A stretch of 64,000 bases of DNA from a phage: the NCBI GenBank assembly GCA_016390365.1, contig GCA_016390365.1_3043.1. One strand, written 5' to 3'. How positions within the stretch are numbered: the stretch's first letter is position 1; each line of letters opens with the position of its first letter. The notes below the pieces were generated by a model that was not told the DNA's origin, ran no database searches, and worked only from the letters and a program-made list of their open reading frames with translations. The position numbers were made by a program, and so were the translations under genes. Positions 1,251-63,648 of the stretch are shown in pieces.

Positions 1251-1808
1251 ATGCAGAAAACGAATCCTGGGTTACAGAGACTATTTCAGATTCCGACATT
1301 TACTCTATCTAACAGCGATTTAACCAATGAAATGAAGGTCAAAATTGCTGATACAGCAAGATACTCTTTAAAACAAAATCCGAACCAGGATAAGGCAGAA
1401 GTTATCGAAAGATGCCGTATCGCTGTGTACGCAGAGTTTTTTGTGGCAGATTGGCTAAGCGGATATGTTAACAAAGGTCAAGAAGATGTCGATGATCCGT
1501 ACACGTATGCATGGGATGTTTTAGCACATCCAAAATACTGTGGGCTCCGTGTAGAAGTTAAGACACATCAAACTGACTCACGTTGGATTTCGGTAACAAC
1601 AGGATGCAGCGGAGAGTATCCATATGGTTCTGGAATAAATCTAGGGCCCATTCTAAATCATCAAGTCGCTGACTGTATAATTATATTCAACACTAAAGAA
1701 ATTCATCCAGGTGTCATCCAGTACACTCCGAAGTTCATCGGTGACAGAGAAGACCTTCGTAAAGTTGTAAGAAAAAGCAACTACAGCGGATGGTATCTTT
1801 CCATTTAA
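1251..1808 (+). CDS. denB: endonuclease IV (cytosine-DNA specific)
   Basis: 185-aa ORF; length and sequence consistent with T4 DenB; position next to rIIB. Confidence 0.88.
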   Translation: MQKTNPGLQRLFQIPTFTLSNSDLTNEMKVKIADTARYSLKQNPNQDKAEVIERCRIAVYAEFFVADWLSGYVNKGQEDVDDPYTYAWDVLAHPKYCGLRVEVKTHQTDSRWISVTTGCSGEYPYGSGINLGPILNHQVADCIIIFNTKEIHPGVIQYTPKFIGDREDLRKVVRKSNYSGWYLSI

Positions 1809-8280: not shown

Positions 8281-8937
8281 TTATTTAGCCCTTCCTAATA
8301 TTCTGGCCGCCTGAGAACATATTGATTCAAGGCGGTCATTACTTATATGATCATTTCTATACCAGTACATGGTTATTGTTCCAGCATAGATATTATCCAA
8401 ATTGAAATATGGACAACTGTACATGTAATTTATTTCGGGAGTAGGCTTTTTAGTTGGTAAAAAAGCAAATTTTGAGTTGGAATAATAATGACGTCCATTT
8501 AAATGAACTGTGTATTCATCCATAGTTTTATCAACAGGATATCCTCCAAGTGATTTTTCAGTTATTGTTGAAGGTAATCTTCCTTCGTATGCTATAATAT
8601 CAACAAAATAGTTTAAGTTTTTAGGGCGGAAAGAATACACCGCACTAAAGTCTGCCTCAGATGATATATGAACTATCTGGAGTTGTTCCAGGGCGACAGA
8701 TTCAAAGCGTGCATTTCTTTCCTTTTCAATAATTTCACTGTATGTTTCATACTTTGATTGCTTATAGTACTCAAAGAAACTATCTCCCCTATACCAAACA
8801 ATCGCCATTATAAACAAAAGAATTACGACAGCTACCCGGGAAGCAAGAACTTTCCCGGTAGCATTATCTTTGAACAAGCGATCTAGAACACCAAATAGAA
8901 TATCAGAGGGCGAAAATGATATTCTAGGTGCTGCCAT
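8281..8937 (-). CDS. t: holin T
   Basis: 218-aa ORF with N-terminal TM segment and large periplasmic domain; matches T4 holin length and sequence. Confidence 0.93.
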   Translation of the reverse strand: MAAPRISFSPSDILFGVLDRLFKDNATGKVLASRVAVVILLFIMAIVWYRGDSFFEYYKQSKYETYSEIIEKERNARFESVALEQLQIVHISSEADFSAVYSFRPKNLNYFVDIIAYEGRLPSTITEKSLGGYPVDKTMDEYTVHLNGRHYYSNSKFAFLPTKKPTPEINYMYSCPYFNLDNIYAGTITMYWYRNDHISNDRLESICSQAARILGRAK

Positions 8938-8967: not shown

Positions 8968-9747
<780 letters not shown>

Positions 9748-36647: not shown

Positions 36648-36923
36648 ATGTTTCCGACTTATTCTAAAATCGTAGAAGTAGTGTTTAGTCAAATTATCGC
36701 TAATAATATGTTTGAAAAGCTTGATAACGCAGCCGAGCTTCGAATTCATGCTCAAGTGACTCATGTATTGAACACTTTGCTTCCAGACCAGGTGGATTCT
36801 ATTGCAATTACGCTGTATCCGGGTTCCGCGCATATCATTGTCGTATTTGGTCTTGATGCTGAGCTAGTCATCAAAGGCGATATTCGCTTTGAATCACAGA
36901 CATCAGAATTCAAGGCAATTTAA
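36648..36923 (+). CDS. hypothetical protein
   Basis: 92 aa from ATG 36648 (track ORF starts at GTG 36642). Confidence 0.45.
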   Translation: MFPTYSKIVEVVFSQIIANNMFEKLDNAAELRIHAQVTHVLNTLLPDQVDSIAITLYPGSAHIIVVFGLDAELVIKGDIRFESQTSEFKAI

Positions 36924-38736: not shown

Positions 38737-39072
38737 ATGTCTGAAGTACAACAGTTACCAATTCGTGCTGTCGGTGAATATGTTATTTTAGTTTCTGAAC
38801 CTGCACAAGCCGGTGATGAAGAAGTTACAGAATCAGGACTTATTATTGGTAAACGTATCCAAGGCGAAGTTCCTGAACTGTGTGTAGTTCACTCTGTCGG
38901 TCCTGATGTTCCTGAAGGTTTCTGCGAAGTTGGTGATTTGACTTCTCTCCCAGTTGGTCAAATTCGAAATGTTCCGCATCCTTTTGTAGCTCTGGGTCTT
39001 AAGCAGCCAAAAGAAATTAAACAAAAATTTGTTACCTGTCACTATAAAGCTATTCCGTGTCTTTATAAGTGA
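38737..39072 (+). CDS. 31: co-chaperonin gp31 (GroES-like)
   Basis: 111-aa ORF matching T4 gp31. Confidence 0.93.
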
Positions 39073-39219
39073 TATAAATAATAATATGAATTGGGTGTCG
39101 GAATAATAAGTTAACCGAACAATTCTATGTGGTAGTCTACAACTGAGAGATCTGTCGAAAGAAGATGAAATTCAGAAGAACGTGACTACCGAGTTTTAAT
39201 CTCTAACGAGAATTTTTAA

Positions 39220-39468
39220 ATGATTAAACAATTACAACACGCTCTTGAACTGCAACGAAACGCATGGAATAATGGTCACGAAAACTATGGCGCATCTATT
39301 GATGTTGAAGCCGAAGCTCTTGAAATCCTGCGTTATTTCAAACATCTGAATCCTGCTCAAACTGCATTAGCTGCTGAGCTTCAGGAAAAAGATGAACTTA
39401 AATATGCTAAGCCTCTGGCTTCTGCTGCACGAAAAGCAGTTCGTCATTTTGTGGTAACACTGAAGTAA
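39220..39468 (+). CDS. rIII: lysis inhibition accessory protein rIII
   Basis: 82-aa ORF; length and position match T4 rIII. Confidence 0.85.
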   Translation: MIKQLQHALELQRNAWNNGHENYGASIDVEAEALEILRYFKHLNPAQTALAAELQEKDELKYAKPLASAARKAVRHFVVTLK

Positions 39469-39864
39469 TTTATTGGAGATTCACTGCCTTAGTGTGAGCT
39501 AAATCGAGGAGCCGTCGAACTGTCTGATTAATGATTTGCGAATCATTATAGTTTTAAGACCCCGGCAGTTTTACGGTGTACCTCTTGAATGTTATTTTAT
39601 AGCGGCAAGTGCATGCTACCCCGAGGTGATGGCCAATCGGGAGTACGCCTCAAGGCCTATATATCCATCAGTATATATCTTATCCTCGAGTAATCGGACC
39701 CGGAACCTTTAAGCTAACGGTGTGCAACAGATAAGAGCTATAAGGTATGATGACGAGGTTTATGGTTATCCTGTCGGTAAATATTCAAAACCTAAGTACC
39801 CCTTTGAGGGCTTTCGCAGGCAATGCCAATAAGTCCTGCATTTTCGTTTAAAAGAGAATTTATA

Positions 39865-40041
39865 ATGGCAAAACAAGCTAAAGCAAAGAAAGCAGTTGAA
39901 AAGAAAGTTGGTGATTCTAAACGCGCTGGCTACAAGCGTGGGTCGAACTCTCGTATCAATCAAACTGTTGAGAAGATCATGCGCCGAGCACGTGCGGTTC
40001 TTCGAGATGATGCTTCTCGTTTTGGTAAGCAGAAAGCATAA
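39865..40041 (+). CDS. small basic protein
   Basis: 58 aa from ATG 39865 (MAKQAKAKKAVEKKVGDSKRAGYKRGS...) with RBS AAAGAGAATTTATA; terminator immediately downstream. Confidence 0.45.
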   Translation: MAKQAKAKKAVEKKVGDSKRAGYKRGSNSRINQTVEKIMRRARAVLRDDASRFGKQKA

Positions 40042-40046
40042 GTTGA

Positions 40047-40071
40047 GGACTCCTTCGGGAGTCCTTTTTTA
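40047..40071 (+). terminator. rho-independent terminator (CUUCGG hairpin)
   Basis: GGACTCCTTCGGGAGTCC followed by TTTTTTATTTT. Confidence 0.75.
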
Positions 40072-40094
40072 TTTTCCAAAGATTGCACAAAGTT

Positions 40095-40124
40095 GTTTAC
40101 AGTACGGTTCCTTTGTGATAGTAT
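40095..40124 (+). promoter_or_regulatory. T4 early-type promoter
   Basis: GTTTAC at 40095 with -10-like TAGTAT about 18 nt downstream. Confidence 0.45.
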
Positions 40125-40151
40125 TATCTTACACAAACAAAGGAGAATAAA

Positions 40152-40517
40152 ATGAACTACATCAACTTTGAACGTAAATATGTTTCTAATGGTATTGCAG
40201 GTTCTATTGATACTATTTGTCTCTGGAAACATCAAAACGGATCAGTATGCGAAATCGATCAGTATATGACTCCTAATTACGTTTATATGCGATTTGAAAA
40301 TGGCATCACGGTTTCAATCACTAAGGAAGGTTCCAACTTTAAAATCGCTCTAGATGATGATTTCCGTGAACGCGATTTAGGGACTCATCCTTGTTGGAAT
40401 GGCGTTCATCGCAAGCTTCTGATTAAAACTTGGATTCGTCATATTCTGAGTAACAAAGCTAAACCTGAGCATCTTGAAGCAATCTTTGATGTAGTTCTTA
40501 ACGAATTTGATATTTAA
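40152..40517 (+). CDS. hypothetical protein
   Basis: 121-aa ORF with RBS AAGGAGAATAAA and early promoter upstream. Confidence 0.5.
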   Translation: MNYINFERKYVSNGIAGSIDTICLWKHQNGSVCEIDQYMTPNYVYMRFENGITVSITKEGSNFKIALDDDFRERDLGTHPCWNGVHRKLLIKTWIRHILSNKAKPEHLEAIFDVVLNEFDI

Positions 40518-40545
40518 GCTTCGGCCCCTTACTGAGGAAAATATT

Positions 40546-40833
40546 ATGTTTATGACTACTTATTTTGATACCCGCAAAAATTTCTGTGAAGTTGTTTTCT
40601 CAAAGGCACCTAAAGACCTTCCTACACATTTGCAACCTACTAGCGAATCGATTAAAAACTACGTTGATGTGGTTTGTCCTTTAGAGTTCCGTACTGTAAA
40701 TGGGCGTGATACTTTAGCTATCACTAAACTTAATCGTGAAATTGACATTGACCCTTCAATTGCGCGCGAAATTAATATCTCTGATATTGGTGGCGGTAAT
40801 GTTAAATCACATGGTTTTCAGATGAGGTTTTAA
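40546..40833 (+). CDS. hypothetical protein
   Basis: 95 aa from ATG 40546 with RBS GAGGAAAATATT (track ORF starts at TTG 40507). Confidence 0.45.
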   Translation: MFMTTYFDTRKNFCEVVFSKAPKDLPTHLQPTSESIKNYVDVVCPLEFRTVNGRDTLAITKLNREIDIDPSIAREINISDIGGGNVKSHGFQMRF

Positions 40834-41030
40834 TGAAATTCTTTTTAGGTCAAACTGTTGAATTAAAGGGAGTTGGTATACCTGGATTAATTTCTAAGGT
40901 TTTATCTGCATTTAAATCTGGAGACCTTCAAATAAAAGAGGCTTATATTGTTTCTTGGGTAGATGGAAATGAAGACCTTCGTATGGGTGATGAATTATCT
41001 CCTATCTACGGATTAAAGGAATTAGTATGA
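40833..41030 (+). CDS. hypothetical protein
   Basis: 65-aa ORF. Confidence 0.4.
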   Translation: MKFFLGQTVELKGVGIPGLISKVLSAFKSGDLQIKEAYIVSWVDGNEDLRMGDELSPIYGLKELV

Positions 41031-41233
41031 ATATAATTAATAAGATTTTTGGAATTCAGTACATTAAGGTCACATATAAAGTAACAGATAAAAATCCGTA
41101 TACTGATGAACACGAAGAACCGAAAGTTGAGTCTATTATATTAGAAAAGGACCCTAACTGGCCAGTTGAATTTCGTCTTCCTTGCTATGGTCATTGGGCT
41201 GATGTTGAAATTATAAGCATTGAAAATGTCTGA
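41027..41233 (+). CDS. hypothetical protein
   Basis: 68-aa ORF. Confidence 0.4.
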   Translation: MNIINKIFGIQYIKVTYKVTDKNPYTDEHEEPKVESIILEKDPNWPVEFRLPCYGHWADVEIISIENV

Positions 41234-41684
41234 GTTAGAGATTAGAAGCAATTTTAGGTGGCCATCATGTGCATTAAGTAATTTCGCCCATTGGCCTTTC
41301 GTTATGGATGGCATTCAATTTGGAGGTCTTGAAGGATTCCTCCAAGGATGCAAGGTGAAAAATGTTGAACAACAACGTCGTATATTTGGGTTATCCGGGC
41401 TTGCCGCCCAACAAGCTGGAAGGTCTTATGCAAGAGCTCAGGACCGTGGGACCCTCTTCTGGCTTGGAGCTCCGTTTTCAAGATACTCCCCAGCGTGGAA
41501 AGAATTATACACAAATGCATATTTTGAAGCAGCGATCCAAAACAAGGGCTTTCGTGATGCATTACAAGCCTCGAAAGGAAAAGTTTTGAAGCACAGCATG
41601 GCTAGTGATCTAACAAAAGATGATACAATACTAACCGAAGCTGAATTTATTGATGTGTTAAACCTATTAAGAGACTCTCTATGA
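41226..41684 (+). CDS. NADAR-domain (YbiA-like) protein, 30.3-like
   Basis: 152 aa from ATG 41226; YbiA/NADAR-like sequence; local GC visibly higher than flanks. Confidence 0.55.
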   Translation: MSELEIRSNFRWPSCALSNFAHWPFVMDGIQFGGLEGFLQGCKVKNVEQQRRIFGLSGLAAQQAGRSYARAQDRGTLFWLGAPFSRYSPAWKELYTNAYFEAAIQNKGFRDALQASKGKVLKHSMASDLTKDDTILTEAEFIDVLNLLRDSL

Positions 41685-42517
41685 AGCCTACTATTTTGAC
41701 TGATATTGATGGTGTATGTTTAAGCTGGCAATCAGGTCTTCCTTATTTTGCCCAAAAATATAATCTTCCATTAGAACATATTTTAAAAATGATTCAGGAC
41801 GAAAAATTTATTTCTCCAGGTAAACTCTTTAACTGTGATGAAGAACTTGGCGTTAAGCTAATTGAAAAATACAATCGTTCGGATTTTATTCGTTACTTGT
41901 CTCCATATAAAGATGCTCTGTGTGTAATTAACAAATTAAAAGAAGATTATAATTTTGTTGCTGTTACAGCACTGGGTGATTCTATTGACGCTCTGCTGAA
42001 TCGTCAATTTAATTTGAATGCTCTTTTTCCTGGTGCCTTCTCAGAAGTACTGATGTGTAGTCATGATTCTTCAAAAGAAGAGTTGTTCAAAAAGGCAAAA
42101 GAGAAATATAACGTAATTTGTTATATTGACGATCTCGCTCACCATTGCGATCACGCGAGTGAAATATTAAATGTTCCTGTTTATTGGATGGCTCGAGGGG
42201 AGCGTGACAGTATTCCAAAAACCGCTCAGCGAGTTTATACATGGAATGATGTAGAGAATAAGCTTTTTCCATCGAAGGAAAATAAAGAAAATTTTGATAG
42301 TGAAAAAGTTATAAAAGATGTAATTGAAAAGATGATTAAAAATGATTCTTTTCCTTGGAACACTACCTGGAGAACTCCTGGATTTAATCCTTATAATCTA
42401 TATCATCCATATCAGACACATCCGTTTCAGACATGGAACTATATTAAACATGGTGGCATAGAGTATTTGTATAATAGACCTACTTGTGGTGATAATATTT
42501 TCCAAGGAGCATTCTAA
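41681..42517 (+). CDS. HAD-superfamily hydrolase-like protein (30.2-like)
   Basis: 278 aa; N-terminal DxDG motif (ILTDIDGV) and later ICYIDD typical of HAD phosphatases/nucleotidases. Confidence 0.5.
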   Translation: MKPTILTDIDGVCLSWQSGLPYFAQKYNLPLEHILKMIQDEKFISPGKLFNCDEELGVKLIEKYNRSDFIRYLSPYKDALCVINKLKEDYNFVAVTALGDSIDALLNRQFNLNALFPGAFSEVLMCSHDSSKEELFKKAKEKYNVICYIDDLAHHCDHASEILNVPVYWMARGERDSIPKTAQRVYTWNDVENKLFPSKENKENFDSEKVIKDVIEKMIKNDSFPWNTTWRTPGFNPYNLYHPYQTHPFQTWNYIKHGGIEYLYNRPTCGDNIFQGAF

Positions 42518-42786
42518 TGTTTGTTGTTCACACTATTTATGAAAATGAAGGTAATACTACACGTGATTACGGTCACGTAAATCAATTTTTTAGATGCAAT
42601 CCAGAATTCCGAGCTCAAAAAGACGAACGAATTTTTAAAAAATGCGTAGAGCAAGGTTTCATTTATATCAAGCACTGGATGCAAGGAAATAAAGTTAGAA
42701 CCACGTACCACAGGTCTTTGACTGAGCTTAATGATGAATTGATTTATAATAGAGCTGTAAACCAAACTCTAAAGGATGAACAATGA
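42517..42786 (+). CDS. hypothetical protein
   Basis: 89-aa ORF immediately upstream of ligase gene. Confidence 0.45.
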   Translation: MFVVHTIYENEGNTTRDYGHVNQFFRCNPEFRAQKDERIFKKCVEQGFIYIKHWMQGNKVRTTYHRSLTELNDELIYNRAVNQTLKDEQ

Positions 42787-44246
42787 TTCTTAAAATTCTG
42801 AACGAAATAGCATCTATTGGTTCAACTAAGCAGAAGCAAGAAATTCTTGAAAAGAATAAAGATAATGAATTGCTTAAACGGGTATATCGTCTGACTTATT
42901 CTCGTGGGTTACAGTATTATATCAAGAAATGGCCTAAACCGGGTATTGCTACCCAGAGTTTTGGAATGTTGACTCTTACCGATATGCTTGACTTCATTGA
43001 ATTCACATTAGCTACTCGGAAATTGACTGGAAATGCGGCAATTGAGGAATTAACTGGATACATCACCGATGGTAAAAAAGATGATGTTGAAGTTTTGCGT
43101 CGAGTGATGATGCGAGACCTTGAATGCGGTGCTTCGGTATCTATTGCAAACAAAGTTTGGCCAGGTTTAATTCCTGAACAACCTCAAATGCTTGCAAGTT
43201 CTTATGATGAAAAAGGCATTAATAAGAATATCAAATTTCCAGCCTTTGCCCAGTTAAAAGCTGATGGAGCTCGGTGCTTTGCCGAAGTCAGAGGTGATGA
43301 ATTAGATGATGTTCGTCTTTTATCACGAGCCGGTAATGAATATCTAGGATTAGATCTTCTTAAGGAAGAATTAATCAAAATGACCACTGAAGCCCGCCAG
43401 ATTCATCCAGAAGGCGTGTTAATTGATGGCGAATTGGTATACCATGAGCAAGTTAAAAAGGAGCCAGAAGGCCTAGATTTTCTTTTTGATGCTTATCCTG
43501 AAATTAGTAAAGCCAAAGAATTCGCCGAAGTAGCTGAATCACGTACTACTTCTAATGGAATCGCTAATAAATCTTTAAAGGGAACCATTTCTGAAAAAGA
43601 AGCTAAATGCATGAAGTTTCAGGTTTGGGATTATGTTCCGTTGGTAGAAATATACGGTCTTCCTGCATTTCGTTTGAAATATGATGTACGTTTTTCTAAA
43701 CTAGAACAAATGACATCAGGCTATGATAAAGTAATTTTAATTGAAAACCAGGTAGTAAATAACCTAGATGAAGCTAAGGTAATTTATAAAAAGTATATTG
43801 ACCAAGGTCTTGAAGGTATTATTCTCAAAAATATCGATGGATTATGGGAAAATGCTCGTTCAAAAAATCTCTATAAATTTAAAGAAGTAATTGATGTTGA
43901 TTTAAAAATTGTAGGAATTTATCCTCACCGTAAAGACCCTACTAAAGCGGGTGGATTTATTCTTGAGTCAGAGTGTGGAAAAATTAAGGTAAATGCCGGT
44001 TCAGGCTTAAAAGATAAAGCCGGCGTAAAATCGCATGAACTTGACCGTACTCGCATCATGGAAAACCAAAATTATTATATTGGAAAAATTCTAGAGTGCG
44101 AATGCAACGGTTGGTTAAAATCTGATGGCCGCACTGATTACGTTAAATTATTTCTTCCGATTGCGATTCGTTTACGTGAAGATAAAACTAAAGCTAATAC
44201 ATTCGAGGATGTATTTGGCGATTTTCATGAGGTAACTGGTCTATGA
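42783..44246 (+). CDS. 30: ATP-dependent DNA ligase gp30
   Basis: 487-aa ORF, same length as T4 DNA ligase; adenylation motif KADGAR present. Confidence 0.97.
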   Translation: MILKILNEIASIGSTKQKQEILEKNKDNELLKRVYRLTYSRGLQYYIKKWPKPGIATQSFGMLTLTDMLDFIEFTLATRKLTGNAAIEELTGYITDGKKDDVEVLRRVMMRDLECGASVSIANKVWPGLIPEQPQMLASSYDEKGINKNIKFPAFAQLKADGARCFAEVRGDELDDVRLLSRAGNEYLGLDLLKEELIKMTTEARQIHPEGVLIDGELVYHEQVKKEPEGLDFLFDAYPEISKAKEFAEVAESRTTSNGIANKSLKGTISEKEAKCMKFQVWDYVPLVEIYGLPAFRLKYDVRFSKLEQMTSGYDKVILIENQVVNNLDEAKVIYKKYIDQGLEGIILKNIDGLWENARSKNLYKFKEVIDVDLKIVGIYPHRKDPTKAGGFILESECGKIKVNAGSGLKDKAGVKSHELDRTRIMENQNYYIGKILECECNGWLKSDGRTDYVKLFLPIAIRLREDKTKANTFEDVFGDFHEVTGL

Positions 44247-44431
44247 AAGCTTACTTAGAAACAGTTGTCGTGGCTCAAAAAGAAGGTGGAGATGTTTCTA
44301 CTTCTGTATCACAAGTCGTTCTCGAATTTGTAGATGCATATGCTTATAATAAATTTACAGAAACATTTGATGCCTATGAAAAAGGTCCAAAGTTTGAAAT
44401 ATACCGTACTCTCTTACCACTAGATTATTAA
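44243..44431 (+). CDS. hypothetical protein
   Basis: 62-aa ORF followed by a CUUCGG hairpin terminator. Confidence 0.45.
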   Translation: MKAYLETVVVAQKEGGDVSTSVSQVVLEFVDAYAYNKFTETFDAYEKGPKFEIYRTLLPLDY

Positions 44432-44452
44432 AGGCCTTCGGGCCTTTAATTT
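44431..44452 (+). terminator. terminator-like CUUCGG hairpin before alt late promoter
   Basis: AAGGCCTTCGGGCCTT followed by TAATTTT. Confidence 0.55.
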
Positions 44453-44460
44453 TATAAATA
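44453..44460 (+). promoter_or_regulatory. late promoter (TATAAATA) upstream of alt
   Basis: Exact TATAAATA immediately after a terminator hairpin, 20 nt before RBS GAGAGG. Confidence 0.65.
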
Positions 44461-44646
44461 GAATAAACACTAGAGAGGATATGATGGAACTTATTTGACG
44501 AAGATACTACTCTTCCAATTACAAACTTAAATCCAAAGAAGAAAATACCGCAAATTTTTTCAGTTCATGTTGATGATGCAATTGAACAACCAGGCTTTCG
44601 TTTATGTACCTATACATCTGGAGGTGATACTAATCGCGATTTAAAA

Positions 44647-46533
44647 ATGGGCGATAAAATGATGCATATTGTTCCTTTTACATTAACTGCTAAAGGTTCA
44701 ATTGCTAAATTAAAAGGTCTTGGTCCAAGCCCAATTAATTATATCAATTCAGTTTTTACTGTTGCGATGCAAACAATGAAGCAGTATAAAATTGACGCGT
44801 GCTTATTCCGTGTACTAAAGAGTAAAACAAATGGCGCAGCTCGTCAAATGCAAGTTATTGCTGACCGTTTAGTACGTACTAAAGGAGCAGGTCGATATGT
44901 TCTTTTAAAGGAAATCTGGGATTACGATAAAAAGTACGCATATATTATGGTTTACCGTAAAAATGCCAATTTAGAAGACATTCCAGGTGTACCTCCTATT
45001 TCAACTGAGTTATTCACAAAAGTTGAATCAAAGGTCGGTGATGTTTATGTAGACGTTAAAACAGGTAATGCTGTTCCTAAAGCTGTCGCTGTTGCTGCTT
45101 CTATTGCTTTAGAAAATGATAAGCGCACGGACCAAGCTGTTATTCAGAAAACTAAAATCAGTCGTCGATTAGCAGCACAAGCTCAATATTCTACTGTCGA
45201 TGCTTCACTTCAGGGTGATAGCTTCGCTGCTAAGAAATATCAGGAATTTGAATCTAAAGTTCCGGTATATAAAGCAGAAGGACCAATGAACTCTGGCGTT
45301 ATTCAGATTGGTTCAAACTTCAGCAAAGGAGCTATTGGTGGTATGAGAAGTGCTTTTCGTTTTAAATCTAACGATTATGAACTAGAAAGTTTCCGAAATC
45401 ATATTGCATTAGCCCATGCACGTTTACGTGATCCATCTATCAAGTTGCAGAGCGATATAACATATCAAGGTTCTCAAGAATATTTAAAGAATAAAGAATT
45501 CTTTGATTATAAAACTGATAAAATTTTAAGCGATCTTGCTGACATTAATATTTCTAATAGCTTTGATGTTATTAAGAAAATTATCAATGATTTAGTTAAA
45601 GGTTCTAAAGCTACACCAGATGAAAAGACAGCTATTATTCAATTTGTCATGAATGGCATTTATAAATTGATTAATGAATCTGCCGCCCAGGCATATGAAT
45701 ACGCAAGCACCGAAGTAGCTCCAAAAGGACTGACTCAGGCTGAATCTGATGTAATTGAAGATTATTGTGCAGATTCATATGTTGAAATGAACTCGTTTCT
45801 TTTGGGTAAACCGGATTCTACCCGCGAAGAATATATGGAACGAGCTATTAAGCACATCGAGACGTTGGATTCTGCATTCGCTAAAGGTTCAGTTCTTCCT
45901 CCAGGAACTACACTTTACCGTGGACAAGAAGTTACCTTTAAAACTTTGCGTCATAACATTGAAAACAAAATGTTCTATTTCAAGAACTTCGTATCTACAT
46001 CGCTTAAACCAAATATCTTCGGCGAGCATGGTAAAAACTATATGGCTCTAGATGATTCTGGCGCAGTATTTTCTGGTGAAGGAGAAGGTTCTGTTGATGC
46101 AGAAGATTTGATGCATATGGGTAGTCATTCTACATATGCTAATGAAGATGCTGAAACTAGCGTGGGTATGGTAATTAAAGGAGCTGAGCGAATCAAAGTT
46201 ATCGTTCCAGGTCATTTATCAGGATTTCCATCAGAAGCTGAAGTTATTCTACCGCGTGGAATTTTACTGAAGATTAATAAAGTAAGTACGTACTTTATGA
46301 AAGAAACTGCTTATAACAAGTATCTAATCGAAGGTACAATCGTTCCTCCTTCTGAACAATTAGAAGAATCAGTATATGATGGCGACCATCTAATGGAAAC
46401 TGGTGAAGTTCGTCCAATGGCTGGATTTAATCAATTCCTTGTAGAAGAATCAAAAGAAGAGGAAAACGAAGTTTCTCAAATCTTAGCTTCTTTGGTTAAC
46501 ATCAACGGAATGTCTAAAAAGTTCAAAATGTAG
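44647..46533 (+). CDS. alt: ADP-ribosyltransferase Alt (5' end disrupted; coordinates from first in-frame ATG)
   Basis: 628-aa ORF with ART-like motifs (YRG, STS, EVILPRG); frame is open upstream to 44485 (..FDEDTTLPITNL..) but RBS-linked ATG at 44481/44484 is in another frame. Confidence 0.75.
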   Translation: MGDKMMHIVPFTLTAKGSIAKLKGLGPSPINYINSVFTVAMQTMKQYKIDACLFRVLKSKTNGAARQMQVIADRLVRTKGAGRYVLLKEIWDYDKKYAYIMVYRKNANLEDIPGVPPISTELFTKVESKVGDVYVDVKTGNAVPKAVAVAASIALENDKRTDQAVIQKTKISRRLAAQAQYSTVDASLQGDSFAAKKYQEFESKVPVYKAEGPMNSGVIQIGSNFSKGAIGGMRSAFRFKSNDYELESFRNHIALAHARLRDPSIKLQSDITYQGSQEYLKNKEFFDYKTDKILSDLADINISNSFDVIKKIINDLVKGSKATPDEKTAIIQFVMNGIYKLINESAAQAYEYASTEVAPKGLTQAESDVIEDYCADSYVEMNSFLLGKPDSTREEYMERAIKHIETLDSAFAKGSVLPPGTTLYRGQEVTFKTLRHNIENKMFYFKNFVSTSLKPNIFGEHGKNYMALDDSGAVFSGEGEGSVDAEDLMHMGSHSTYANEDAETSVGMVIKGAERIKVIVPGHLSGFPSEAEVILPRGILLKINKVSTYFMKETAYNKYLIEGTIVPPSEQLEESVYDGDHLMETGEVRPMAGFNQFLVEESKEEENEVSQILASLVNINGMSKKFKM

Positions 46534-62082: not shown

Positions 62083-63648
62083 TTAGATACCTTTAACATA
62101 TACACGGCGGAAGTAAGCGTTTTTACCAAGGCTATTCAGAATAGAAGGCATACCGCTCTGGATGCGAGAAGCCGGAGCCTGAGCAGCGGATTCTGCAAAT
62201 GGGTTGATACCGATACCGTAACGAGTTTTGAATCCCATTACCGGTTGGAAGTTCTTCGGATCAGAACCACGCAGCGGAGTCAGAGCTACATATGGAGCAT
62301 AGTAAATACCAGCATCCATTTCGTTCGGACCTTTATAACCTACAGTGAAATAATCCTGTTTAGCATACTGGTCGATATATACACGGTATTTACCACCCAG
62401 AACACCAGCAAATACTGACTTGGTAGTATCAGTGTTAAAGCCGGTAGCCAGACCCTGTGCAGCATAAGAAATGCCAGTATCAACTGAAGCCAGAACGTTA
62501 ACTACGTTACGGGAAGCGATAATGAAGTTACCTTCGCCGCGACCAGTCTGACGAGCAATTTCAACTGCTTCTTTGTCAATCTGGAACAACAGAGCTTTAA
62601 AGGATTCACCTGCCCAGCGAGCACCACGAATATCAATCGGATCCTGGAAGTCAAATACACCAGCTTTAGAACCCGGAGTCAGGGTCATACCAGATTTACC
62701 AACCTGAGCTGAGTAGTTAATCCAATCAACAACTTCGCGGTTGATTTCCAGCATAATTTCGGTAGCCAGAATACCGGACAGTTCAGCATCAGCATCCATA
62801 CCGTGAACAGCGCGGAGGTCCTGTGCTAATTCGATAGAGTAAGCAGCTTTCAGCTGACGAGATTTAGCTTCGATAACTTGTTTATCGATACGGAAGCCCA
62901 TTTCATTCCATGGGTTATCGGTAGAACCGTTGAAACCTTCCTGAAGTTCAGCGATAGAAGTAGCCATGCCTTCAGCGATTTCTACCAGTACACCAGCTTC
63001 CATTTGTTTCTTAACTTCGGCATCTAATTTAGCAGCATCAGTCGCACCAGCATCGATTGTTACTACAGCGGAAGCTTGCAGATACACAGTACCAGTTTCC
63101 TGGAAGAAGTGAGTATAGATATCACCTACAACGGTTTGTGTGCTAGCAGCAAGAGCTGGGAATTTCTTAGCAGCACCCTGACCAGAGAACATTGCATCTG
63201 GACCATACATTGGGTGGAATGCTTCTTTAGCATCGGAAGCGATTGGGTCTTTACCATATACTGCACGCAGTGCGAATACCTGGCCAGTCGGGCTGTTCAT
63301 CGGCTGAACACCGCAAATATCGAAAGCAATCAGGTTAGGAATAGCACGACGTACCATACCCATAACAGCCGGGCCAATCTGAGTTACTGCGCCAGAAGTC
63401 TGACCTGCAGCGATGTTGGTAGCATTGTAACCGTGGTCACCACCGATTTCAGCTTCTGTTAAGAAAGAACCAAATGCCTGAGCAATTTTTTCGTCTTTAT
63501 ATTCCGGAGCTGTCTGGAAATCTTTTTCCTGGTTTTCAAAGATTTTAGCGATAATCGCTTGTTTGCTATTAGCAATTTCCGGTAAACCTTCACCTTCCAG
63601 TAATGGCTTCCATTTGTTCAAAAGTTCAGCTTTAGTTTTGATAGTCAT
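62083..63648 (-). CDS. 23: major capsid protein gp23
   Basis: 521-aa ORF, same length as T4 gp23 precursor; strongly biased codon usage. Confidence 0.97.
   Translation of the reverse strand: MTIKTKAELLNKWKPLLEGEGLPEIANSKQAIIAKIFENQEKDFQTAPEYKDEKIAQAFGSFLTEAEIGGDHGYNATNIAAGQTSGAVTQIGPAVMGMVRRAIPNLIAFDICGVQPMNSPTGQVFALRAVYGKDPIASDAKEAFHPMYGPDAMFSGQGAAKKFPALAASTQTVVGDIYTHFFQETGTVYLQASAVVTIDAGATDAAKLDAEVKKQMEAGVLVEIAEGMATSIAELQEGFNGSTDNPWNEMGFRIDKQVIEAKSRQLKAAYSIELAQDLRAVHGMDADAELSGILATEIMLEINREVVDWINYSAQVGKSGMTLTPGSKAGVFDFQDPIDIRGARWAGESFKALLFQIDKEAVEIARQTGRGEGNFIIASRNVVNVLASVDTGISYAAQGLATGFNTDTTKSVFAGVLGGKYRVYIDQYAKQDYFTVGYKGPNEMDAGIYYAPYVALTPLRGSDPKNFQPVMGFKTRYGIGINPFAESAAQAPASRIQSGMPSILNSLGKNAYFRRVYVKGI

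What the first reader, a model, noticed from the sequence alone, without database searches (positions are those of the whole stretch)
41226..42517. High-GC NADAR-domain gene followed by a HAD-like hydrolase
The 152-aa ORF at 41226 has YbiA/NADAR-like sequence and markedly higher GC than its neighbours (runs such as GGACCGTGGGACCCTCTTCTGGCTTGGAGCTCC), suggesting acquisition from a bacterial source. NADAR enzymes have been reported to remove ADP-ribose from modified guanine, so a phage copy could counter DarT-type ADP-ribosylating defence toxins; this functional link is an inference, not shown by the sequence. The adjacent 278-aa ORF has HAD motifs (DIDGV...ICYIDD) and could process nucleotide or ADP-ribose-derived products.
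Basis: inference. Interest (0 to 1): 0.5.

Follow-up and report, generated by a model that had tools for sequence, protein, structure and literature searches.

The report
Known phage anti-DarT enzyme plus phosphatase
These are genes 30.3 and 30.2 of a T4-type phage: 30.3 is AdfN, already shown experimentally to strip ADP-ribose off phage DNA and defeat the bacterial DarTG1 defence, and 30.2 is an uncharacterised nucleotidase-like phosphatase that sits next to the DNA ligase gene in almost all T4-like phages sampled.

Summary
The window is a Tequatrovirus, about 97% identical in DNA to many T4-like phages. ORF 41226-41684 is T4 gene 30.3 and ORF 41681-42517 is gene 30.2.

The composition anomaly is real. 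GC is 42.5% against 36.1% for the window, and synonymous codon usage is the most atypical of 90 ORFs. However, the gene is fixed in T-even phages, so this is not evidence of a recent transfer.

gp30.2 has a HAD fold with a C1 cap and all four HAD motifs, and it most resembles 5'(3')-nucleotidases. Its substrate is unknown. Published T4 transposon data show 30.2 is dispensable for DarTG1 resistance, so a NADAR-HAD pathway is not supported. The HAD gene's constant neighbour is DNA ligase (70 of 73 loci).

Verdict: already known, ordinary, low interest.

The parts
41226..41684 (+). Gene 30.3 = adfN (anti-DarT factor NADAR), 152 aa. Catalytic codons are E36 (41331-41333), K43 (41352-41354) and H123 (41592-41594). 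The C-terminal helix (residues 138-151) is intact.
41681..42517 (+). Gene 30.2, 278 aa. It is a HAD-superfamily phosphatase with a C1 helical cap (residues ~1-222) followed by a disordered, aromatic-rich C-terminal tail (224-278). Motif I is D8/D10 (41702-41710), motif II T96 (41966-41968), motif III K132 (42074-42076) and motif IV D150/D151 (42128-42133).
41027..41233 (+). Gene 30.4, 68 aa, function unknown. Its stop codon overlaps the 30.3 start (ATGTCTGA).
   Evidence: phrog_2042; T4T annotation. In T4 Tn-seq under DarTG1 it is mildly depleted (log2FC -1.79, adjusted p 0.014). This may be a polar effect on 30.3. Homologues are found only in the 15 close T-even loci.
41362..41589 (+). 30.3', a 75-codon ORF in the +1 frame inside 30.3. 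It is annotated in T4T as an internal translation product.
   Evidence: The frame is open in 14 of 15 close relatives. That openness is expected by chance given the protein sequence and codon usage (P 0.16-0.22).
42517..42786 (+). Gene 30.1 (DUF3045), 89 aa, lying between the HAD gene and the ligase gene.
   Evidence: Pfam PF11243, E 1.2e-64. Present in only 24 of 78 HAD loci.
42783..44246 (+). Gene 30, ATP-dependent DNA ligase (487 aa). It is the constant downstream neighbour of the HAD gene.
   Evidence: Annotation of the matching T4T region. Ligase lies downstream of the HAD gene in 72 of 78 HAD-anchored loci. The HAD gene lies upstream in 70 of 73 ligase-anchored loci.
40045..40124 (+). 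Terminator-like hairpin (40045-40066) followed by a promoter-like site (40096-40124). Together they would start a tightly packed co-directional block 30.7-30.6-30.5-30.4-30.3-30.2-30.1-30-alt.1.
   Evidence: Consensus scan only. No + strand terminator-like site was found between 40066 and 44700.

Best explanation
The window comes from a T4-type phage (Tequatrovirus).

Gene 30.3 encodes AdfN, a minimal, single-domain NADAR enzyme. When the host DarTG1 system senses infection, its toxin DarT1 attaches ADP-ribose to guanine bases in phage DNA and blocks replication. AdfN cleaves the guanine-ADP-ribose bond using E36 and K43, with H123 in the place of the Glu or Asp found in cellular NADARs. This restores the DNA so that the phage can replicate. 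In effect AdfN is an orphan antitoxin carried by the phage. This part is shown experimentally for the T4 protein, which differs at 4 of 152 non-catalytic positions. For this window it is inferred by near-identity and an intact active site.

Gene 30.2, translationally overlapped with 30.3, encodes a Mg-dependent phospho-monoesterase of the HAD superfamily with a small-molecule-type C1 cap. It is most similar to 5'(3')-(deoxy)nucleotidases, so it probably dephosphorylates a nucleotide or a similar small phosphoester. It is not part of the anti-DarT1 mechanism. Its conserved partner by gene order is DNA ligase. Fold and motifs are shown here; the substrate is inferred and unknown.
For: - Identity of the locus: megablast gives ~97% identity to hundreds of T4-like phages, and the T4T annotation matches gene for gene.
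- gp30.3 family and sequence: Pfam Phage_30_3 at E 1.4e-69. It is 148/152 identical to T4 AdfN and full length.
- gp30.3 conserved residues: S18-N19-F20, E36 and H123 are invariant and K43 is >=90% conserved across 72 homologues.
- gp30.3 sequence link to NADAR: the family profile aligns E36 and K43 to the E and K of YbiA at E 0.0087. 11 of 72 relatives hit Pfam NADAR, best 1.5e-7.
- Published function of AdfN-T4: it is necessary and sufficient for T-even resistance to DarTG1; E36A and K43 mutants are inactive; it removes ADP-ribose from DNA in vitro; the RB69 frameshift that removes the last helix makes RB69 sensitive (PMC11825919). It reverses guanine-ADPr but not thymidine-ADPr in vitro (PMC11125620). 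The His replacing Glu/Asp defines phage NADARs.
- T4 Tn-seq: 30.3 has log2FC -7.25 under DarTG1 and is unaffected under DarTG2.
Against: - No biochemical or genetic test was done on this phage itself.
- The window protein gets no direct Pfam NADAR, NCBIfam or PADLOC hit, so NADAR membership rests on structure prediction, transitive sequence links and the literature.
- Published work says AdfN-T4 works fully only during T-even infection, so an unidentified phage factor is part of the mechanism.
Confidence: 0.88

Rival explanations
1. 30.3 and 30.2 form a two-step pathway. The NADAR releases ADP-ribose (or a derivative) from DNA, and the HAD phosphatase then detoxifies or recycles it. Alternatively, gp30.2 is the unknown T-even factor that AdfN needs for full activity.
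For: The two genes overlap by 4 nt and are co-directional. A NADAR gene lies within ~2.7 kb upstream of the HAD gene in 37 of 78 HAD loci, over a wide range of T4-like phages. The literature reports a missing T-even-specific factor.
Against: In T4 Tn-seq, insertions in 30.2 are neutral under DarTG1 (log2FC -0.12, p 0.61), while 30.3 falls by 7.25 log2 units. The Nudix gene nudE is also neutral. Only 20 of 81 NADAR-anchored loci have this HAD within 6 kb. Two ligase loci have the NADAR but no HAD.
Confidence: 0.05
2. gp30.2 works with DNA ligase. It could remove 3'-phosphates at nicks so that ligase can seal them, or act on a ligase-related nucleotide. It would be brought to its partner by short motifs in its disordered C-terminal tail.
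Confidence: 0.12
3. gp30.3 is a housekeeping YbiA-type enzyme, for example acting on riboflavin-pathway intermediates, rather than a counter-defence enzyme.
Against: The residue that defines the YbiA family, a Glu in the last strand, is His in all 72 homologues. The DarTG1-specific phenotype and the DNA de-ADP-ribosylation activity are published for the T4 protein.
Confidence: 0.02
4. The high GC and odd codon usage mark a recent horizontal transfer of 30.3 from a bacterium into this phage lineage.
For: 30.3 has the most atypical codon usage of 90 ORFs (z -4.7) and ranks 3rd in GC. The literature places phage NADARs nearest the DarG1 antitoxins.
Against: The gene is present at 84-98% protein identity in all 15 close relatives retrieved. 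In more distant T4-like phages it occupies the same position upstream of the HAD-ligase pair. In 66 distant loci its GC tracks the flanking GC (r 0.96, mean excess only 1.7 points). Part of the GC excess lies at codon position 2, i.e. in amino-acid composition. No close bacterial homologue appeared among the 104 hits listed, whose source names point to phages or give no organism.
Confidence: 0.1

Closest known systems
AdfN (T4 gp30.3), anti-DarT factor NADAR; Pfam PF08010 Phage_30_3
   Same: It is 148/152 identical and the same length, with the same catalytic E36, K43 and H123 and the same C-terminal helix. It has the same neighbours (30.4 upstream, 30.2 downstream). This is the same gene in a sister phage.
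   Different: There are four substitutions (H22 for Q, A82 for V, M125 for I, D128 for G), none at a conserved catalytic position. Activity was not tested for this allele.
DarG1, the NADAR antitoxin of the DarTG1 toxin-antitoxin system (BC4488 subfamily; e.g. Geobacter lovleyi, PDB 8bat)
   Different: The phage protein is the bare core domain without the N-terminal extension. It has His instead of Asp in the last strand. It is not encoded next to a DarT toxin. As reported for T4, it does not rescue uninfected cells from DarT1.
E. coli YbiA (PDB 2b3w) and Phytophthora NADAR (PDB 8bau)
   Different: Only 19-20% identity. The defining Glu of the YbiA family is replaced by His. YbiA-type proteins are housekeeping enzymes.
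5'(3')-deoxyribonucleotidases (NT5C family, cdN/mdN; PDB 2jao, 6g2n, 3bwv) - closest to gp30.2
   Same: HAD core plus a helical C1 cap of similar size. Shared motif I region DxDGVxxx[FW]xSGL, and a DD motif IV.
   Different: Sequence similarity is marginal (E 0.04). The window protein does not reach the Pfam NT5C threshold. It carries an extra ~80-residue segment, mostly disordered, that the cellular enzymes lack. The substrate is unknown.
T4 PseT (polynucleotide kinase/3'-phosphatase), HAD phosphatase domain (PDB 1ltq, 5uj0)
   Different: Only the 126-129-residue core of PseT aligns, so nothing in it matches the gp30.2 cap. PseT acts on polynucleotide 3' ends and is fused to a kinase (per its deposited name). 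gp30.2 has a full cap and no kinase domain.

Membership tests
NADAR superfamily | YbiA-type fold: a core of helices flanked by small sheets | tested here: met
NADAR superfamily | Conserved catalytic Glu and Lys on the central helix, plus the N-terminal SNF motif | tested here: met
   S18-N19-F20 and E36 are invariant and K43 is >=90% conserved in 72 homologues. The profile alignment places them on the SNF, E and K of YbiA. E36 and K43 are the residues mutated in the T4 study.
NADAR superfamily | Significant match to the Pfam NADAR model (PF08719) | tested here: inconclusive
   The window protein gives no hit even at E<=10. 11 of 72 family members do hit, best E 1.5e-7, so the link is transitive only.
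NADAR superfamily | Hydrolysis of the guanine-N2-ADP-ribose bond in DNA or RNA | not testable with these tools
   Published for the 97%-identical T4 protein (PMC11125620, PMC11825919, PMC12945103).
Phage NADAR subfamily / AdfN (Pfam Phage_30_3) | Match to PF08010, and His in the last strand where YbiA has Glu and DarG1 has Asp | tested here: met
   PF08010 at E 1.4e-69, covering the whole model. H123 is invariant.
Phage NADAR subfamily / AdfN (Pfam Phage_30_3) | Full length with the C-terminal helix (its loss in RB69 abolishes protection) | tested here: met
   152 aa, aligned end to end with T4. Helix 138-151 is present in the model.
Phage NADAR subfamily / AdfN (Pfam Phage_30_3) | Required for plating on DarTG1-carrying hosts | not testable with these tools
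   Shown for T4 by deletion and by Tn-seq. Not tested for this phage.
DarG1 antitoxin (DarTG1 operon NADAR) | Encoded next to a DarT1 toxin; N-terminal extension; Asp in the last strand | tested here: not met
   The neighbours are 30.4 and the HAD gene 30.2. The protein is the bare 152-aa core with H123. There is no PADLOC hit.
HAD (haloacid dehalogenase-like) phosphatase superfamily | Rossmann-like HAD core fold | tested here: met
HAD (haloacid dehalogenase-like) phosphatase superfamily | Four catalytic motifs: I DxDx[TV], II S/T, III K/R, IV DD | tested here: met
   D8-I-D10-G-V12, T96, K132 and D150-D151. D8, D10 and K132 are invariant and the others are >=90% conserved in 69 homologues.
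HAD (haloacid dehalogenase-like) phosphatase superfamily | Match to a Pfam HAD model | tested here: inconclusive
   The window protein shows only HAD_PNKP at E 0.14. Among relatives, 9 of 69 hit PF00702 and 5 of 69 hit NT5C, best 1.2e-4.
5'(3')-deoxyribonucleotidase (NT5C) family | C1 helical cap with an aromatic, base-stacking residue 8 positions after the first Asp; sequence match to the family | tested here: inconclusive
5'(3')-deoxyribonucleotidase (NT5C) family | Nucleoside monophosphate phosphatase activity | not testable with these tools
   The paper library held no paper containing 'gp30.2' and none on T4 'gene 30.2'.

The most novel reading that the evidence does not exclude
gp30.2 may be a dedicated accessory of the phage DNA ligase. 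It would be a capped HAD phosphatase kept immediately upstream of gene 30 across T4-like phages and brought to a partner by interchangeable short motifs in its disordered tail, acting on a nucleotide or DNA-end substrate connected with nick sealing. A second unexcluded reading is that the small T-even-specific gp30.4, translationally coupled to AdfN and mildly depleted under DarTG1 in T4 Tn-seq, is the missing factor that AdfN needs for full activity.
Probability: 0.12. Interest if true: 0.45.

Novelty: already known. Interest (0 to 1): 0.18.

Why it matters
The headline idea, a phage NADAR that reverses DarT ADP-ribosylation of DNA, is an important example of a phage carrying an orphan antitoxin. 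However, it was published for this very gene in T4 in 2024-2025, so the window adds only another allele.

What remains open:
- The T-even factor that AdfN needs for full activity.
- The reason for the gene's persistently odd codon usage.
- The function of gp30.2. The library holds no paper on it, yet it is one of the most constantly placed accessory genes of T4-like phages, sitting next to DNA ligase.

These are modest leads rather than surprises.

Tried and rejected
- Direct sequence searches of both proteins against Pfam (NADAR, HAD), NCBIfam, PADLOC and PDB sequences gave nothing significant. Classification needed profiles, structure prediction and relatives.
- I tested the idea that gp30.2 is AdfN's partner and rejected it. 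T4 Tn-seq shows 30.2 is neutral under DarTG1 and DarTG2, and NADAR-anchored synteny is weak (20 of 81).
- No other conserved neighbour of the NADAR gene emerged across distant loci.
- I tested whether the internal +1 ORF 30.3' explains the odd codon usage or is itself supported. The rare codons are spread inside and outside the overlap, and an open frame there is expected by chance (P 0.16-0.22).
- I tested GC as evidence for recent transfer and judged it weak.
- An Rfam scan of 39000-45000 found only one sub-threshold match, Atu_C8 at 39997-80, overlapping the terminator-like hairpin (40045-66). The promoter-like site count was no higher than in shuffled sequence.
- Literature searches for gp30.2 found nothing.
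- I did not retrieve the header of the DarTG1 Tn-seq sheet. My statement that only 30.3 and 30.4 are significant therefore covers the rows from gene-26 to the end of the sheet.

Full report
**What is there**

The region is a tightly packed, co-directional run of ORFs on the + strand. Megablast of 40800-42900 finds about 97% identity over the full length to hundreds of T4-like (Tequatrovirus) phages. The annotated T4T record matches gene for gene, in the order cd, 31.2, 31.1, 31, rIII, 30.9, (30.8), 30.7, 30.6, 30.5, 30.4, 30.3, 30.2, 30.1, 30 (DNA ligase), alt.1, alt.

The ORF at 41226-41684 (152 aa) is gene 30.3, and the ORF at 41681-42517 (278 aa) is gene 30.2. They overlap by ATGA.

**Composition**

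Gene 30.3 is 42.5% GC. The window mean is 36.1% and the flanking genes are 32-37%.

- Among 90 non-overlapping ORFs it ranks 3rd for GC and 4th for GC3, both about 2 SD above the mean. The 521-aa ORF at 62083-63648 (the length of T4 gp23, my identification) has higher GC.
- Synonymous codon usage is the sharper test. Conditioned on the protein sequence, 30.3 is the most atypical ORF in the window (z -4.7). 26 of its 152 codons are rare G/C-ending synonyms, spread along the gene.

So the compositional observation holds and is more than chance. It is not evidence for a recent transfer, for these reasons:

- All 15 close relatives retrieved carry the gene at 84-98% protein identity.
- More distant T4-like phages carry it in the same place, upstream of the HAD-ligase pair.
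- In 66 distant loci its GC follows the local GC (r 0.96) with only a 1.7-point excess.

**gp30.3 is AdfN**

Pfam assigns it to Phage_30_3 at E 1.4e-69, and it is 148/152 identical to T4 gp30.3.

Direct searches against the Pfam NADAR model, NCBIfam, PADLOC and PDB sequences find nothing.

- An alignment of 72 homologues shows S18-N19-F20, E36 and H123 invariant and K43 >=90% conserved.
- A profile of that alignment hits E. coli YbiA (E 0.0087) and places E36 and K43 on YbiA's Glu and Lys.
- 11 of the 72 homologues reach the Pfam NADAR model, best E 1.5e-7.
- The AlphaFold model is confident (pLDDT 93.6).

**What is already published on this gene**

Johannesman et al. (Nat Commun 2025, PMC11825919) mapped T-even resistance to DarTG1 to gene 30.3 and renamed it adfN. 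They reported the following:

- The gene is necessary and sufficient for counter-defence.
- The E36 and K43 mutants are inactive.
- The protein removes ADP-ribose from DarT1-modified DNA.
- RB69 is sensitive because a frameshift deletes the last helix.

An earlier study showed in vitro reversal of guanine-ADPr, but not thymidine-ADPr, by T4 gp30.3. It also defined phage NADARs by a His where YbiA has Glu and DarG1 has Asp (PMC11125620 and PMC11543638).

A T4 transposon screen (bioRxiv 10.1101/2025.11.20.689424) gives 30.3 a log2 fold change of -7.25 under DarTG1 and no change under DarTG2.

The window allele keeps E36, K43, H123 and the C-terminal helix. The mechanism therefore transfers by near-identity.

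**gp30.2 is a capped HAD phosphatase**

It is 97% identical to T4 gp30.2.

- The model is confident for residues 1 to about 222. Residues 224-234 and 242-278 are predicted disordered.
- All four HAD motifs are conserved across 69 homologues: D8/D10, T96, K132 and D150/D151.
- A helical C1 cap lies between motifs I and II.
- The family profile weakly hits cytosolic 5'(3')-deoxyribonucleotidase (E 0.04). The two share the stretch DGVxxx[FW]xSGL.
- A few relatives reach the Pfam Hydrolase and NT5C models.
- Viral structural neighbours beyond the orthologues are mostly annotated as 5' nucleotidases.

The best reading is a Mg-dependent small-molecule phosphatase, probably a nucleotidase, with unknown substrate. 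I found no paper on gp30.2.

**Are the two genes functionally linked?**

The evidence argues against it.

- In T4 Tn-seq under DarTG1, insertions in 30.2 are neutral (log2FC -0.12, p 0.61), as are nudE and adfA (61.2). In the rows I read (gene-26 to the end of the sheet), only 30.3 and, mildly, the upstream overlapping 30.4 are depleted. 30.4 has log2FC -1.79 with adjusted p 0.014, which could be a polar effect.
- Only 20 of 81 NADAR-anchored viral loci have this HAD within 6 kb.
- In contrast, 72 of 78 HAD-anchored loci have the gp30-type DNA ligase downstream on the same strand, and 37 of 78 have a NADAR upstream.
- Of 73 ligase-anchored loci with enough upstream sequence, 70 carry the HAD, and 66 of those have it within about 700 nt. 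Two loci have the NADAR directly upstream of ligase with no HAD.

The constant pair is therefore HAD-ligase, and the NADAR is a frequent but optional third member. This may be inherited gene order only. It may also hint at a ligase-related role. The full cap argues against a DNA-end substrate, and no HAD-ligase fusions were seen.

**Verdict**

The thing itself is already known: AdfN in a T4 sister phage, next to an uncharacterised but unremarkable HAD phosphatase. Remaining small leads are listed under next steps and things noticed in passing.

Noticed in passing
window 44489-44510 (start of alt) and ORF 44647-46533: Relative to T4, the window lacks 11 nt (TTATTACAGAA, lying between TTATT repeats) just after codon 4 of alt. 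The normal start now reads ATGATGGAACTTATTTGA and stops after 5 codons. The remaining ORF encodes 628 aa, against 682 in T4 Alt. None of the 500 matching phage records shares the deletion: no record exceeds the 90-95% identity band, and the top hits span 132 record bases for the 121-base query (an 11-base gap). Alt, the packaged ADP-ribosyltransferase, may be N-terminally truncated or inactive in this phage, or this may be a sequencing error.
   Followed up: partly
window 40042-40151: Gene 30.8 of T4 is cleanly absent. The deletion joins two near-identical RBS/start regions (GGAGAATAAAATGAA), so 30.7 now sits directly behind the promoter-like region that precedes 30.8 in T4.
   Followed up: partly
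window 41362-41589 (+1 frame inside 30.3): The T4-annotated internal ORF 30.3' (75 codons) has an SD-like AAGGTG 4 nt upstream of its ATG and is open in 14 of 15 close relatives. However, an open frame here is expected by chance given the AdfN protein sequence and phage codon usage (P 0.16-0.22). Sequence alone therefore gives no support for it being a real gene.
   Followed up: yes
window 41027-41233 (gene 30.4): In published T4 Tn-seq under DarTG1, 30.4 is the only gene besides 30.3 that is significantly depleted in the rows read (log2FC -1.79, adjusted p 0.014). Its stop codon overlaps the 30.3 start, so polarity is the simple explanation. However, 30.4 homologues occur only in the close T-even group, and this matches the reported T-even-specific requirement of AdfN.
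   Followed up: partly
window 42350-42517 (gp30.2 residues ~224-278) and homologues P0105-P0204: The C-terminal tails of gp30.2 homologues are hypervariable in length and sequence and are predicted disordered. Even so, they carry a few recurring short motifs: G-[IT]-E-Y-[LWY]-x-x-[QR]-P-T (GGIEYLYNRPT in the window), [DN]LRAYY, VPDYVLLNK and ALLGM. This looks like interchangeable docking peptides.
   Followed up: no
window 41226-41684, opposite strand; loci L002-L081: Long antisense ORFs (60-100 codons) lie inside the NADAR gene in 71 of 81 loci. This is probably a by-product of the conserved coding sequence rather than a gene.
   Followed up: no
window 1251-1808 (+), 8281-8937 (-), 36648-36923 (+): These ORFs are the next most atypical in synonymous codon usage after 30.3 (z -4.2, -4.0 and -2.8). 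In addition, 8968-9747 (-) has the highest GC in the window (49%). None of these was examined.
   Followed up: no
homologues P0014, P0015, P0017, P0049, P0095: Several database proteins join a fragment of gp30.3 to parts of other genes, per their precomputed Pfam domains (PF06919 = Gp30.7; PF06019, PF11097 and PF26911 not looked up). Several phage records also hold only truncated 30.3 ORFs (86-109 aa). This suggests that adfN is repeatedly disrupted or rearranged in some T4-like phages, as in RB69.
   Followed up: no
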